From IMG/VR virus record IMGVR_UViG_2663763286_000008: a stretch of DNA of 11,284 nucleotides. One strand, written 5' to 3'. The DNA is from a virus. Taxonomy: Duplodnaviria; Heunggongvirae; Uroviricota; Caudoviricetes. The notes beneath the pieces are model-generated. The model was not told the origin of the DNA and did not search any database. It saw only the letters and a program-made list of their open reading frames with translations. A program made the translations under genes and the position numbers. Below, one piece after another: positions 9,215 to 11,284 of the stretch. Every line of letters starts with the position of its first letter. Position 1 is the first letter of the stretch.

Positions 9215-9695
9215 CGAGTAAATCCGGTAATTTATCCCCTGCCCGCGCACACTGATTTGCCCCCTTCGCAATAAGGGTTTTCAGATGGTCAAGATGGCGC
9301 GGTGTTAAATCAGGAAACTGTCGCTGCATGGATAAAGGGATGGAATCAAGCGTACTGGATAACGCCATTGCCAGCTTACTGAGGGCAAAAATACAGAACC
9401 CGGTGTCAATAAGTTTTCCTTTTGACACCTCATTTTTTAACTGCTGTGTAACAGCCTGTTCTGCTGTCAGTTCCCATCTGGCAATAAGCAATTTCTCCTC
9501 ATAGTCGTCTTCGCTATCGCCATCAGGCACATCGTTTTTACTTCTCCTCAGATATGATATGTAAAAATCGCGCCAGGCATCCAGATCCAGTTGCCCTCGC
9601 TTATTCGATATCGGGGCACCCGGCAATTTCTGCAATCTGCGAAGCTGGCGATCGGTCAGACTTAAATGCCTGGCAACTTCAGTCTGCGTAGCCAC
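9186..9695 (-). CDS. nu1: terminase small subunit (Nu1-like) with a divergent N-terminal DNA-binding domain
   Basis: The C-terminal two thirds (IDTGFCIFALSKLAMALSSTLDSIPLSMQRQFPDLTPRHLDHLK...LLDEYI) resemble lambda Nu1, whereas the N-terminus (MATQTEVARHLSLTDRQLRRLQ, HTH-like) does not. It starts at a GTG with a GAGGTGAGGA ribosome-binding site, overlaps the start of A by 29 nt as in lambda, and sits directly downstream of cos. Confidence 0.85.
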   Translation of the reverse strand: MATQTEVARHLSLTDRQLRRLQKLPGAPISNKRGQLDLDAWRDFYISYLRRSKNDVPDGDSEDDYEEKLLIARWELTAEQAVTQQLKNEVSKGKLIDTGFCIFALSKLAMALSSTLDSIPLSMQRQFPDLTPRHLDHLKTLIAKGANQCARAGDKLPDLLDEYIRATTE

Positions 9696-9735
9696 TCCTC
9701 ACCTCGCAAAAACTCTCACCTCACAATCACAACAA

Positions 9736-9842
9736 AACCGGTCATGTCCGGTTTACATGTCTGTTTTTTGTTCATGTCCGGTTCACAGAAGACCTGTTTT
9801 TATATTTTTCATATAGTTAACTTGAAGAGAAACCGGACATGG
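9736..9842 (-). promoter_or_regulatory. cosB-like region: three copies of an 11 bp core (catgtccggtt) flanking an AT-rich tract; predicted terminase small-subunit and IHF binding sites
   Basis: The core occurs at 9743-9753 and 9773-9783 (plus orientation) and inverted at 9832-9842 (aaccggacatg). The first copy sits inside a longer palindrome, aaccggtcatgtccggtt. An AT-rich segment (9795-9830) lies between copies 2 and 3, mirroring the lambda R3-I1-R2-R1 layout. Confidence 0.65.
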
Positions 9843-9878
9843 ATCCCGGAAAATTTTCATAAATAGCGAAAACCCGCG

Positions 9879-9890
9879 AGGTCGCCGCCC
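9879..9890 (-). other. cosN cohesive-end sequence (minus strand GGGCGGCGACCT)
   Basis: The minus strand reads gggcggcgacctcgcgggttttcgctatttatgaaaattttccgg, identical to the lambda left end as I recall it. The other side (9891-9906, minus-strand read gatccgacaggttacg) matches the lambda right terminus. Confidence 0.85.
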
Positions 9891-10097
9891 CGTAACCTGT
9901 CGGATCGCCGGAAAGGACCCACGAAAATGATAATAATTATCATCTACATGAGGTTTATCACGACATGTGTGTACGCCATCAAACCACGAGAAATAATCAA
10001 TTATTACGCAAGTATCGTATTAATTGATCTGCATCAAATTAGCGTAAAAGCAACTTCAGATAATACAAATCAGCAACACTGAATACGGGGCAACATT

Positions 10098-10322
10098 ATG
10101 TCATCAAAGAACAGAACCCGCAGAACAACAACCCGCAACATCCGATTTCCAAACCAGATAATTGAACAAATTAACATCGCTCTTGACCTGAAAGGTTCAG
10201 GTAATTTTTCAGCGTGGGTTATTGAAGCCTGCAGAAGAAGATTAATTAATGAAAAATATTCTCAATTTGTACCCAACAAAGACAAACACGACCAGAGCAC
10301 CTGTTCAGACAGGTTTACTTAA
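10098..10322 (+). CDS. small DUF3950-family protein (YlcI/YnfO-like; homolog of the small ORF at the lambda right end), probable ribbon-helix-helix fold
   Basis: The 74 aa product MSSKNRTRRTTTRNIRFPNQIIEQINIALDLKGSGNFSAWVIEACRRRL has the YlcI/YnfO-type N-terminus I recall from lambdoid prophages. The pattern of a basic N-terminus, a short beta strand (NIRFP) and two helices resembles ribbon-helix-helix DNA binders. ATG start with a GGGG ribosome-binding site. Confidence 0.75.
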   Translation: MSSKNRTRRTTTRNIRFPNQIIEQINIALDLKGSGNFSAWVIEACRRRLINEKYSQFVPNKDKHDQSTCSDRFT

Positions 10323-10340
10323 ACGACTTATATATGACAC

Positions 10341-10367
10341 AAAAAGCGACCACTAAAGTCGCTTTTT
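10341..10367. terminator. bidirectional intrinsic terminator between the convergent DUF3950 and PerC-like genes
   Basis: aaaaagcgac cactaaa gtcgcttttt: a 6 bp GC-containing stem (agcgac/gtcgct) with a 7 nt loop, flanked by an A5 run on one side and a T5 run on the other, so it can act on transcripts from either strand. It lies 19 nt after the DUF3950 stop and 37 nt after the PerC-like stop. Confidence 0.65.
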
Positions 10368-10403
10368 CTTATGGTAACAGGCAATAACGCTCTCAGATAT
10401 TTT

Positions 10404-10718
10404 TTAGCATTTTTTTGACCGCGCGTTTCCGGACGTATTCTGTTCTCCTGTCCCTTTATATCGTCGGAATACCCGCCGCTCTTCAAATCCCATTCCCAAC
10501 TCAGAATGTAGTCTGTTGACCGCTTGTTTTATTTCGGTCAGGTTCACCGGTGAAACCGGAGTCCGGCGCGCCTTACGCAAACACTCTGCTCGTTTCTGTG
10601 CCGCCACTTTTCTTTTCTGGTCATCACTTAGCTGTACCATCACTTTTGCCCATCGTTCAGCTGCTCTCCGGTACAGTCCTTTTTTCTCCAGACATTCTGC
10701 CACGTGATCATGTAGCAT
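10404..10718 (-). CDS. PerC-family transcriptional regulator (Pch-like, PerC homolog)
   Basis: The 104 aa product MLHDHVAECLEKKGLYRRAAERWAKVMVQLSDDQKRKVAAQKRAECLRKARR carries the LEKKGL(W/Y)RRA..RWA..M motif that I recognise as the PerC/Pch signature. ATG start with a GGAGG ribosome-binding site 8 nt upstream. Low GC, in contrast to the flanking phage genes. Confidence 0.75.
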   Translation of the reverse strand: MLHDHVAECLEKKGLYRRAAERWAKVMVQLSDDQKRKVAAQKRAECLRKARRTPVSPVNLTEIKQAVNRLHSELGMGFEERRVFRRYKGTGEQNTSGNARSKKC

Positions 10719-10761
10719 AAGTGACCTCCGATTATCTACAGACTGCCATCCTGAATTTACC

Positions 10762-10856
10762 TTCCCTTAATGAAATAACAATAAAAAACAAACCACGCAA
10801 AAACAATAAAACAACACACAAAAAAAACTAAATAATAAACAAAAATAATCACCTTA
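10762..10856 (-). repeat. strand-asymmetric low-complexity tract (A/C-only on plus, T/G-only on minus) in the PerC-like gene's upstream region
   Basis: About 95 bp (aaataacaataaaaaacaaaccacgcaaaaacaataaaacaacacacaaaaaaaactaaataataaacaaaaataatcacc) contain almost no G and very little T on the plus strand. The tract lies about 45-140 bp upstream of the PerC-like start codon. Confidence 0.6.
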
Positions 10857-11183
10857 TTTTATTATTTTTTGAGGGAGCAATTACTGAACAAAAAACGCTG
10901 ACTATATACTCAAAACCAAACAACTATTCTGCCAATCAGGTATCATGGCAACACACGGAATTACCGTGTTTTTGCCTTCTCTGCCCATACAATACGGGCA
11001 TATACTTCATACTCTATTGTAATATTTCTATCCATGCGCCCCACTCCATTTACCTGTAAATAATATTCAAAATATTTATCACAGAAATCGTTTTTGGCCA
11101 TGAACTGAGCACACTATAAAGTCCGGAACTGACTCTTTGTTAAATTACTTTAACGTTACCAGTAACACCTTCATAACAAAACA

Positions 11184-11284
11184 TCACGGTATACACTGGG
11201 TACGGATATATTCCTGTGCTCCTTCCAGTTGCTTCTGCATTGCCATCAGCCGTTCTCTGAGGATGAAATAATCCCGTTCAGCGG
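11184..11284 (-). CDS. Rz: i-spanin Rz, 3' end only (gene starts beyond the window end)
   Basis: The minus-strand frame ending at 11184 reads ...AERDYFILRERLMAMQKQLEGAQEYIRTQCIP*, matching the lambda Rz C-terminus (AERDYFTLRERL..MQKQLEG.Q.YI..QC) as I recall it. Confidence 0.8.
   Translation of the reverse strand, partial: AERDYFILRERLMAMQKQLEGAQEYIRTQCIP
11246..11284 (-). CDS. Rz1: o-spanin Rz1, 3' end only, embedded in the +1 frame of Rz
   Basis: The alternative minus-strand frame reads ...PLNGIISSSENG*, matching the lambda Rz1 C-terminus (PLNGIISPSERG), with the typical nesting inside Rz. Confidence 0.75.
   Translation of the reverse strand, partial: PLNGIISSSENG

What the first reader, a model, noticed from the sequence alone, without database searches (positions are those of the whole stretch)
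10762..10856. About 95 bp A/C-only tract upstream of the PerC-like gene
The plus strand here is built almost entirely of A and C (one or two G, few T), with recurring aacaa, aaaac and acaca units. That degree of strand asymmetry is unusual for enterobacterial intergenic DNA. It sits where the promoter or 5' UTR of the PerC-like gene should be, so the transcript leader would be a U/G-rich unstructured RNA and the DNA an A-tract-rich, probably curved segment. Either could be a regulatory input (H-NS or Fis binding, Hfq or CsrA-type RNA binding, or slippage-prone phase variation). No coding function is plausible in any frame.
Basis: seen in the sequence. Interest (0 to 1): 0.45.

Follow-up and report, generated by a model that had tools for sequence, protein, structure and literature searches.

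The report
Promoter of the prophage pch gene
The odd A/C-only stretch is the T-rich promoter, and the DNA just upstream of it, of a well-studied prophage virulence regulator gene (pchA/B/C of EHEC); it is not an RNA leader, so it is real but ordinary.

Summary
The tract is real. Positions 10762-10856 are A59 C19 T15 G2, and the core 10777-10845 is A50 C13 T5 G1. It is the most A/C-skewed 95-nt stretch of the window.

It lies upstream of a minus-strand PerC-family gene (10404-10718, a group-1 pch gene). That gene is a moron between the lysis gene Rz and cos of a lambdoid prophage.

Published Cappable-seq data for EDL933, whose copy is base-identical here, put the dominant pch transcription start at window 10771. 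The signal was seen in all 8 conditions. The tract core is therefore promoter positions -6 to -75:
- -10 hexamer TATTGT (10783-10778)
- 17-nt spacer
- -35 hexamer TTGTTT (10806-10801)
- T8 run at -49 to -56

The real leader is only 53 nt and is not U/G-rich.

The tract is conserved at all group-1 pch loci examined. 672 of 5426 complete E. coli genomes carry it, with a median of 3 copies. T positions are kept while G and A interchange. The T8 run is T7 in about a third of loci, on several haplotype backgrounds. Rare spacer indels and one 48-bp deletion also occur.

The 500-bp fragment containing the tract is the published butyrate-responsive "PpchA" promoter.

Verdict: a known promoter region. 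The leader-RNA reading is refuted. H-NS binding, curvature and slippage ideas are only weakly supported. Low interest.

The parts
10762..10856 (-). Reported tract. It reads T/G-rich on the pch sense strand and A/C-rich on the + strand.
   Evidence: Composition A59 C19 T15 G2; the most A/C-rich 95-nt stretch of the window.
10777..10845 (-). Core of the tract, equal to promoter positions -6 to -75. On the sense strand it is T50 G13 A5 C1.
   Evidence: Maximal-scoring segment; positions relative to the mapped start.
10771..10771 (-). Dominant transcription start (+1, an A) of pch.
   Evidence: Cappable-seq on EDL933 gives TSS 1271063 for RS06260 in all 8 conditions, signal 164-2240 (PMC10469882 supplementary files 6 and 8). 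Window 10380-11010 is base-identical and colinear with that copy.
10778..10783 (-). -10 hexamer TATTGT (-12 to -7), followed by the AT-rich discriminator TATTTC.
   Evidence: Position relative to the TSS. Invariant in group-1 loci; TATTAT or CATTAT in divergent alleles.
10801..10806 (-). -35 hexamer TTGTTT (-35 to -30), with a 17-nt spacer.
   Evidence: The spacer is 17 nt in almost all of the loci where it could be measured, 16 nt in 3 and 18 nt in 1.
10820..10827 (-). T8 homopolymer (A8 on the + strand) at -49 to -56. It is length-polymorphic and overlaps the position of a distal UP-element subsite.
   Evidence: T8 in 49 loci, T7 in 29, T6 in 1. Both lengths occur on 6 of 18 haplotype backgrounds. 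The T7 form is 100% identical in several complete genomes.
10719..10771 (-). Actual 53-nt 5' UTR of pch. It holds the Shine-Dalgarno sequence GGAGG and three GGA motifs.
   Evidence: The fold shows the Shine-Dalgarno sequence pairing with the early coding sequence, as described for pchA in PMC7769764.
10404..10718 (-). pch gene: 104 aa, PerC family, group-1 pchA/B/C type.
   Evidence: RefSeq annotation of the identical EDL933 copy.
10341..10367 (-). Intrinsic terminator hairpin downstream of pch (AAAAAGCGAC...GTCGCTTTTT).
   Evidence: Sequence; fold.
10719..11218 (-). The 500-bp fragment used in the literature as the butyrate-responsive promoter 'PpchA'.
   Evidence: The primers of PMC10101121 map exactly to 10719-10739 and 11198-11218.
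10857..10960 (-). Upstream block (-86 to -190). Its distal part, from about 10876 (-105) outwards, is more sequence-conserved than the tract among E. coli pch loci; the part next to the tract (10857-10875) varies between allele classes. Candidate site for activators; not conserved in E. albertii.
   Evidence: Alignment; E. albertii locus.

Best explanation
The tract is the sigma-70-type promoter of a group-1 pch gene (pchA/B/C type) together with its T-rich upstream region. The gene is a PerC-family activator of the LEE virulence island. It is carried as a 'moron' between the lysis gene Rz and cos of a lambdoid prophage.

Transcription starts at window 10771 on the minus strand. The -10 hexamer (TATTGT), the 17-nt T-rich spacer and the -35 hexamer (TTGTTT) all lie inside the tract. 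The remaining roughly 40 nt, including a T8 run at -49 to -56, form the immediate upstream region.

The inferred mechanism is as follows. The core hexamers are weak (4/6 and 3/6). They are probably helped by the AT-rich, T-tract-rich upstream DNA, either through contacts with the RNA polymerase alpha C-terminal domain (UP-element-like) or through DNA shape. The same AT-rich island (GC 0.22 in a roughly 0.55-GC phage) is the likely platform for the nucleoid proteins and regulators reported to control pch: Lrp with butyrate, LrhA, and possibly H-NS.

The strand asymmetry (T-runs broken by single purines) most likely reflects growth of the tract by slippage or duplication of T-rich units of about 21-25 nt. 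Selection appears to act on AT-richness and T-runs rather than on 'no A/no C' as such.

On prophage induction, antiterminated late transcripts read through the whole region. Only then is the tract part of an RNA.

Shown: the start site, the hexamer positions, conservation, polymorphism, promoter activity of the 500-bp fragment, and the moron layout. Inferred: the UP-like role, regulator and H-NS binding within the tract, and the origin by slippage.
For: - Start site. Cappable-seq in EDL933 places TSS 1271063 (window 10771) in all 8 conditions, with signal 164-2240. Minor starts lie at window 10756 and 10746. The window is base-identical to that copy over 10380-11010.
- Hexamers. TATTGT lies at -12 to -7 and TTGTTT at -35 to -30, with a 17-nt spacer. 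In the E. coli loci where they could be read, the -10 hexamer is conserved with only a G/A change and the -35 hexamer is unchanged apart from one allele. The -10 also persists in E. albertii and more divergent alleles.
- Promoter activity. The 500-bp fragment 10719-11218 drives a reporter with high basal activity and is induced by butyrate (PMC10101121). Lrp/butyrate and LrhA control of pchA is reported (PMC7279287, PMC4456613).
- Moron layout. GC is 0.39 against 0.55 for the structural genes, and the gene has its own terminator. Genomes without pch match only from 11194 onwards, within Rz, and phages without pch match only up to 10232.
- Induction. Group-1 pch expression rises with SOS/prophage induction (PMC6265319).
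- No known RNA. Rfam finds nothing, and the minus-strand RNA across the tract folds no better than shuffles (z = +1.5).
- Composition is conserved rather than sequence. T counts are 49-51 of 70 in nearly all group-1 alleles while G and A interchange. Allele L085 has a different sequence that is still T/G-only.
- Internal repeats and a deletion between TTAGTTTTTT direct repeats fit an origin by slippage.
Against: - The start site comes from one published data set on one strain. The three near-identical pch paralogues could share multi-mapped reads. I could not retrieve the rows for the other paralogues.
- The -35 match is weak (3/6).
- The match to the UP-element consensus is only partial: 7 of 14 specified positions, in the distal half only.
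- No experiment has dissected the 500-bp fragment. PMC10101121 itself says the operator is unknown.
- No H-NS, Lrp or LrhA occupancy data for this DNA were available to me.
- The motif scans were weak.
Confidence: 0.85

Rival explanations
1. The tract is mainly a 5' leader. pch mRNA would start further upstream, for example from the promoter-like site at 10951-10923, or would come from read-through. The U/G-rich RNA would then be bound by Hfq, CsrA or ribosomal protein S1 to control translation or stability.
For: - A 9/12 promoter-like match lies upstream, at 10951-10923 on the minus strand.
- A weak start at window 11146 exists.
- Late-operon read-through on induction would transcribe the tract.
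Against: - The dominant start is at 10771 in all 8 conditions. The only upstream start was seen in 1 of 8 conditions, at a signal roughly 60- to 800-fold lower.
- Promoter-like matches are no more frequent than in shuffles: 2 found against 2.6 expected.
- The RNA shows no structure signal.
- All GGA motifs lie in the real 53-nt leader, not in the tract core.
Confidence: 0.07
2. The tract is a phase-variation or rheostat element. Slippage in the T-runs changes promoter geometry and switches or tunes pch expression.
For: - The T8 run is T7 in 29 of 83 loci and T6 in 1. Both lengths occur on 6 of 18 haplotype backgrounds, and the variation is real in complete genomes.
- The spacer is 16 or 18 nt in 4 loci.
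- One allele has a 48-bp deletion between direct repeats.
Against: - The variable run lies upstream of the -35 hexamer (-49 to -56), not in the spacer.
- Runs of 8 nt or fewer slip far less than the runs of 9-10 nt or more typical of contingency loci (established knowledge).
- The spacer is 17 nt in the great majority of loci.
- The variation seen is between lineages, and nothing shows within-strain switching.
- The rare spacer indels are single loci from draft assemblies and could be sequencing errors.
Confidence: 0.12
3. The primary role of the tract is as a nucleation site for H-NS, Hha or StpA (xenogeneic silencing), or as a curved-DNA element. The promoter hexamers would be incidental.
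For: - GC is 0.22 over about 110 bp inside phage DNA of 0.55 GC.
- Modelled curvature exceeds the 95th percentile at 10800-10820 and reaches the 99th percentile at 10870.
- pch belongs to the H-NS-controlled LEE regulatory network (PMC4764244).
Against: - No match to the H-NS high-affinity motif lies within the tract, even allowing 2 mismatches.
- Uninterrupted A/T-tracts with few TpA steps are not the preferred H-NS substrate (established knowledge).
- The promoter is active in all 8 Cappable-seq conditions and has high basal activity on a plasmid, so it is not strongly silenced.
- The curvature model uses recalled parameters, and the tract is not the window maximum.
Confidence: 0.3
4. The functional product is a plus-strand, A/C-rich RNA. 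It would be either an antisense transcript across the pch 5' end or a divergent small RNA (about 10872-10975) whose promoter uses the tract as upstream DNA.
For: - Antisense starts lie at window 10552 (4 conditions) and 10724 (1 condition).
- The hairpin at 10948-10977 has the shape of an intrinsic terminator only on the + strand.
- A 9/12 promoter-like site lies on the + strand at 10836-10865.
Against: - No + strand start near 10872 appears in the held part of the TSS tables, though these tables are truncated.
- There is no Rfam match.
- The promoter-like match is at chance level.
- The antisense starts are of the pervasive kind that PMC10469882 describes.
Confidence: 0.05

Closest known systems
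PpchA, the promoter region of pchA of EHEC O157:H7 (Nakanishi et al. 2009, as used in PMC7279287 and PMC10101121)
   Same: It is the same DNA. The published 500-bp fragment equals window 10719-11218. It is butyrate/Lrp-responsive and LrhA-activated.
   Different: The literature treats the 500 bp as an unbounded promoter with unknown operator. Placing the core hexamers inside the T-rich tract comes from combining the public TSS table with the sequence here.
Phage morons with their own promoter and terminator, such as lambda bor and lom (Juhala/Hendrix concept)
   Same: A single gene of lower GC sits between conserved late genes (Rz and cos/nu1). It has its own constitutive promoter and its own terminator, and it is expressed from the prophage.
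   Different: It is oriented with the late operon, so it is also read through on induction. The promoter is unusually T-rich and low in complexity.
Promoters with UP elements or upstream A/T-tracts (rrnB P1; Estrem et al. 1998; Aiyar et al. 1998)
   Same: AT-rich DNA from -38 to about -75 lies upstream of weak core hexamers, with a T-run at -49 to -56 where the distal UP subsite lies.
   Different: Only 7 of 14 specified consensus positions match, and the proximal subsite is absent. Dependence on the alpha C-terminal domain is untested.
Simple-sequence contingency promoters (Haemophilus hifA/B TA repeats; Neisseria porA/opc and Bordetella fim homopolymers in the spacer)
   Same: Homopolymer runs in a promoter show length differences between isolates.
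   Different: The variable run lies outside the -35/-10 spacer and is only 6-8 nt. No within-strain switching is shown.
H-NS-silenced AT-rich promoters of horizontally acquired genes (for example LEE1/ler and proU)
   Same: A low-GC island in acquired DNA, within the Pch/Ler/H-NS regulatory circuit.
   Different: It is active in all conditions assayed. It has no high-affinity motif, and no occupancy data were available.

Membership tests
Sigma-70-type bacterial promoter | An experimentally mapped primary (5'-triphosphate) transcription start | tested here: met
   Published Cappable-seq gives TSS 1271063 in 8 of 8 conditions. It maps to window 10771 through a base-identical, colinear alignment.
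Sigma-70-type bacterial promoter | A -10 hexamer ending about 7 nt before the start, with A at position 2 and T at position 6 | tested here: met
   TATTGT at -12 to -7. It is conserved as TATTGT, TATTAT or CATTAT in all alleles.
Sigma-70-type bacterial promoter | A -35 hexamer 16-18 nt upstream of the -10 | tested here: met
   TTGTTT (3/6, with the TTG kept), spacer 17 nt. The match is weak.
Sigma-70-type bacterial promoter | The DNA drives expression of a reporter | tested here: inconclusive
   This is shown in the literature only for the whole 500-bp fragment 10719-11218. The tract alone has not been tested.
UP element | Match of -59 to -38 to NNAAAWWTWTTTTNNNAAANNN | tested here: inconclusive
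   By hand: 7 of 14 specified positions match. The distal T-run matches and the proximal AAA does not.
UP element | Stimulation depends on the RNA polymerase alpha C-terminal domain | not testable with these tools
   This needs in vitro transcription with alpha-truncated RNA polymerase.
5' UTR regulatory leader (Hfq/CsrA/S1-bound U-rich RNA) | The element lies within the mRNA made from the gene's own promoter | tested here: not met
   The start at 10771 leaves the core tract (10777-10845) untranscribed. The upstream start is about 60- to 800-fold weaker and was seen in 1 of 8 conditions.
Phase-variable simple-sequence promoter | The repeat tract lies in the -35/-10 spacer or in an activator site | tested here: not met
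   The variable T6-8 run lies at -49 to -56. The spacer is 17 nt in the great majority of loci where it could be measured.
Phase-variable simple-sequence promoter | Tract-length variation | tested here: inconclusive
   Differences of one nucleotide between lineages are real and recurrent. Within-strain switching cannot be tested here.
H-NS xenogeneic-silencing target | An extended AT-rich segment relative to the genome | tested here: met
   GC is 0.22 over -1 to -110, against 0.55 in the structural genes.
H-NS xenogeneic-silencing target | A high-affinity nucleation motif (TCGATAAATT-like) or measured occupancy | tested here: not met
   No match with up to 2 mismatches lies inside the tract; the nearest is at 11137-11146. 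ChIP data were not available.
Phage moron | A gene with its own promoter and terminator and deviating GC content, inserted between conserved phage genes | tested here: met
   Promoter, terminator, GC 0.39 against 0.55. Homology with pch-less genomes and phages resumes at 11194 and at 10232.
Intrinsically curved DNA | A-tracts phased at about 10.5 bp that give high predicted curvature | tested here: inconclusive
   Fourier power at 10-12.5 bp is modest. The wedge model gives 13-15 degrees per turn, above the 95th percentile but not the window maximum, and its parameters were recalled from memory.
Known RNA family (Rfam) | A covariance-model match | tested here: not met
   No match at E <= 1 on either strand of 9600-11284.

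The most novel reading that the evidence does not exclude
The low-complexity T-rich promoter may act as an evolvable 'rheostat'. Recurrent one-nucleotide slippage in the T-run at -49 to -56, occasional spacer indels, G/A swaps and repeat-mediated deletions would set heritably different expression levels of the pchA, pchB and pchC paralogues and of different EHEC lineages. They would do this by shifting the phase between the conserved upstream activator block and the core promoter, and so tune LEE virulence output.
Probability: 0.15. Interest if true: 0.35.

Novelty: already known. Interest (0 to 1): 0.15.

Why it matters
pchA/B/C are master activators of the LEE type III secretion island in EHEC. 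Their promoter is also used as a butyrate biosensor part. Pinning the core promoter to this T-rich tract gives a start at 10771, a -10 at 10778-10783 and a -35 at 10801-10806. That narrows the 'unbounded 500 bp' used in the literature. It also suggests where to look for the Lrp, LrhA and H-NS sites, namely -40 to about -190. Beyond that practical annotation, the finding does not reveal a new kind of element.

Tried and rejected
- Rfam scan of both strands of 9600-11284 at E <= 1: nothing.
- RNA folding of the putative long leader: no better than shuffles, z = +1.5.
- Divergent + strand small RNA (about 10872-10975, promoter-like site plus hairpin). The fold is modestly better than shuffles (z = -2.2). 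There is no TSS support in the held tables and the promoter match is at chance level. I kept it only as a side note.
- Esr41 and HnrS, two EHEC prophage or island small RNAs. Esr41 is in OI-43, and HnrS is in Sp9/10/12 late regions, not the pch prophages. I did not check the HnrS sequence against the window because the text read did not give it.
- H-NS ChIP tables (PMC4764244 supplement) and Sakai dRNA-seq tables (PMC7547250): no usable per-gene data are held.
- Melson & Kendall 2019 (DicF-pchA): not held. I used a review's description instead.
- GTDB genome scan for Pch relatives: only 2 loci. A second viral scan with a divergent query mostly re-found the same loci, plus L085.
- pchE-type PerC gene of EDL933 (L084): it has its own TSS but no T-rich tract, so the tract is specific to group-1 pch morons.
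- Motif scans for IHF, H-NS, Lrp and Fis: only weak, degenerate matches.
- TSS rows for the other EDL933 pch paralogues: I could not retrieve them.

Full report
**Observation.** The reported interval 10762-10856 is A59 C19 T15 G2 on the + strand. A maximal-scoring segment analysis narrows the core to 10777-10845 (A50 C13 T5 G1). No other 95-nt stretch of the window is as A/C-rich: the count here is 80, against a mean of 50.8 and sd of 5.5. In 300 first-order Markov simulations of the window the highest value reached was 74. Given the AT-richness, the A-over-T excess has binomial p = 2.6e-7. Tandem Repeats Finder sees about three degenerate units of 21-25 nt, score 63, which 1.5% of shuffles of the segment reach. 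'Few T' holds for the core rather than for the whole interval.

**Context.** The gene to the left, 10404-10718 on the minus strand, encodes a 104-aa PerC-family protein (Pfam PF06069, E = 4e-44). It is identical or nearly identical to the group-1 Pch proteins of EHEC. On the minus strand the order is:
- 3' end of the lysis gene Rz (stop codon at about 11184)
- 465-bp intergenic region containing the tract
- pch
- a hairpin terminator at 10341-10367
- an oppositely oriented DUF3950/ynfO-like gene
- cos/nu1/terminase

E. coli genomes without pch match only from 11194 onwards, and pch-less phages match only up to 10232. GC is 0.39 in 10233-11193 against 0.55 in the structural genes, and 0.22 over the 110 bp upstream of the start. 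This is the classical layout of a phage moron. Reviews confirm that pchA, pchB and pchC sit on lambdoid prophages, activate LEE1/ler, and are induced with the SOS response.

**What the tract is.** The decisive evidence is a public transcription-start map. Cappable-seq of E. coli O157:H7 EDL933 was done in eight conditions with triplicates (PMC10469882). For the PerC-family gene EDL933_RS06260 (CDS 1270696-1271010, minus strand) it lists a start at 1271063 in all eight conditions, with signal 164-2240. Minor starts lie at 1271048 (one condition) and 1271038 (two conditions). The window aligns colinearly with that copy and is base-identical to it from 10380 to 11010. The start therefore transfers exactly to window 10771, the A of TTTC[A]TTAAGGG.

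Relative to this start:
- TATTGT occupies -12 to -7 (10783-10778).
- TTGTTT occupies -35 to -30 (10806-10801), with a 17-nt T-rich spacer.
- The discriminator is the AT-rich TATTTC.
- The T8 run lies at -49 to -56 (10820-10827).

The core tract is therefore promoter DNA from -6 to -75. Only about 10 nt of the reported interval are transcribed from the gene's own promoter. The real leader is 53 nt (10719-10771) and is not U/G-rich. It carries the Shine-Dalgarno sequence, which in the predicted fold pairs with the early coding region. This agrees with the anti-SD mechanism described for pchA and the small RNA DicF. The only start further upstream (record 1271438, window 11146) was seen in one condition at signal 2.9.

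**Independent functional support.** Two synthetic-biology papers use 'PpchA' as a butyrate-responsive promoter. The primers of one of them map exactly to 10719-10739 and 11198-11218. The published promoter fragment is therefore this intergenic region. It has high basal activity in E. coli BL21 and roughly two-fold butyrate induction. The authors state that its operator has not been delimited. LrhA and Lrp/butyrate are the reported activators.

**Comparative evidence.** In 80 IMG/VR prophage loci plus the window, the tract is present upstream of every group-1 pch gene except one deletion allele. 672 of 5426 complete E. coli genomes carry it, with a median of three copies and a maximum of five.
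- Sequence is not strictly conserved. Three main allele classes differ by G/A swaps on the sense strand: GCGTGGTTTGT, ATATAATTAGT and CTGTGATTTAT. T content stays at 49-51 of 70 in nearly all group-1 alleles. The 'A/C-only' look is therefore specific to this allele, while T-runs broken by single purines are the conserved property.
- A more divergent allele (L085) has a different sequence that is still T/G-only.
- E. albertii and a 77%-identical Escherichia sp. copy keep only the proximal T-run plus a -10-like (C/T)ATTAT.
- The pchE-type PerC gene of EDL933 has its own start but no such tract.

**Length variation.**
- The T-run at -49 to -56 is T8 in 49 loci, T7 in 29 and T6 in 1.
- Both lengths occur on 6 of 18 otherwise identical haplotype backgrounds.
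- The T7 form on the window's background is found at 100% identity in several complete genomes, so it is not a sequencing artefact.
- The -35/-10 spacer is 17 nt in almost all loci where it could be measured, 16 nt in three and 18 nt in one.
- One allele (L062) lacks 48 bp between two TTAGTTTTTT direct repeats.

The tract is therefore mildly slippage-prone. The variable run lies outside the spacer, and nothing indicates on/off switching.

**Other readings tested.**
- Rfam finds no family on either strand.
- A long U-rich leader would fold no better than shuffles.
- One minus-strand frame is open across the tract (31 aa, hydrophobic). It begins upstream of the start, and the common T7 alleles break it.
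- A simple wedge model, with parameters recalled from memory, predicts moderate curvature: 13-15 degrees per turn at 10800-10820 (above the 95th percentile) and 17.8 at 10870 (about the 99th percentile). This is not the window maximum, and A-tract periodicity is weak.
- Motif scans for H-NS, IHF, Lrp and Fis give only degenerate matches.
- Hand comparison of -59 to -38 with the UP-element consensus gives 7 of 14 specified positions, all in the distal half.

**Mechanism.**
- Shown: the tract contains the core promoter of pch and the DNA immediately upstream. The promoter is active in all conditions assayed. The surrounding fragment is a working, butyrate-responsive promoter. The gene has its own terminator and sits in the late operon.
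- Inferred: weak hexamers are compensated by T-rich upstream DNA, either through UP-like contacts with the alpha C-terminal domain or through DNA shape.
- Inferred: the AT-rich island, together with the better-conserved block further upstream (from about 10876 to 10960), hosts Lrp, LrhA and possibly H-NS.
- Inferred: the AT-rich discriminator would fit the positive ppGpp/DksA control reported for pch. That report is from my own recollection of Nakanishi et al. 2006 and is not verified here.
- Inferred: the strand asymmetry is a by-product of expansion of T-rich units by slippage.

**Novelty and verdict.** This is the promoter region of a well-studied gene, and its start site is already in a public table. 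The only increment here is placing the hexamers inside the T-rich tract and documenting its allelic and length variation. The leader-RNA branch and its Hfq/CsrA corollary are refuted for the gene's own transcript. The H-NS, curvature and phase-variation branches remain weakly supported speculation. Interest is low.

Noticed in passing
window 10719-10771 (minus strand): The real 53-nt pch leader carries three GGA motifs: AGGGAA at 10763-10765, CAGGAUGG at 10749-10751, and CGGAGG (the Shine-Dalgarno sequence) at 10727-10729. This is the arrangement typical of CsrA-repressed leaders. In the fold, the Shine-Dalgarno sequence pairs with the early coding sequence.
   Followed up: partly
window 10948-10977 and 10961-11101: The hairpin GGCAACACACGGAATTACCGTGTTTTTGCC has the shape of an intrinsic terminator only on the + strand. 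A 46-aa minus-strand ORF with no Pfam hit ends in its loop. The EDL933 annotation used by PMC10469882 evidently tagged this ORF as RS29835. It has a weak start at window 11146, in 1 of 8 conditions.
   Followed up: partly
window 10552 and 10724 (+ strand): Published antisense starts lie inside pch (4 conditions) and in its 5' UTR (1 condition). Such transcripts would carry the A/C-rich, G-poor tract and could end at the + strand hairpin near 10975.
   Followed up: no
window 10757-10852 (minus strand): A 31-aa, very hydrophobic ORF starting with GTG (MIIFVYYLVFFVCCFIVFAWFVFYCYFIKGR) is open across the tract in this allele. It is a by-product of T-rich codons. It starts upstream of the transcription start and is frameshifted in T7 alleles.
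   Followed up: yes
L062:1000-1200 (IMGVR_UViG_2728369393_000011): This natural pch allele has a 48-bp deletion between two TTAGTTTTTT direct repeats. The deletion removes the -35 region and most of the tract but recreates a T-rich context upstream of a TATTAT -10.
   Followed up: partly
L085:490-560 (IMGVR_UViG_2724679239_000010): A divergent pch allele has a shorter upstream tract that differs in sequence but is still T/G-only: CTTTTTGGTTTTTTATTTTTTTGTTTTTATTTTTATTATTATG. Composition, not sequence, is what persists.
   Followed up: partly
window 10785-10849: The tract is built of about three degenerate units of 21-25 nt, and TTTTATTGTT recurs 24 nt apart, covering both the -35 and the -10 hexamers. 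This suggests local duplication as its origin.
   Followed up: partly
window 10098-10322 (+ strand): A 74-aa DUF3950 (YlcI/YnfO-type) gene lies opposite to pch, between the pch terminator and cos. In EDL933 the equivalent gene is truncated by an IS element.
   Followed up: no
not in this window (Sakai prophages Sp9, Sp10, Sp12): A 2026 paper describes HnrS, a multicopy 66-nt small RNA in the late regions of EHEC prophages that represses hha. It is reported from prophages other than those carrying pchA/B/C. Its sequence was not in the text I read, so I did not search the window for it.
   Followed up: no
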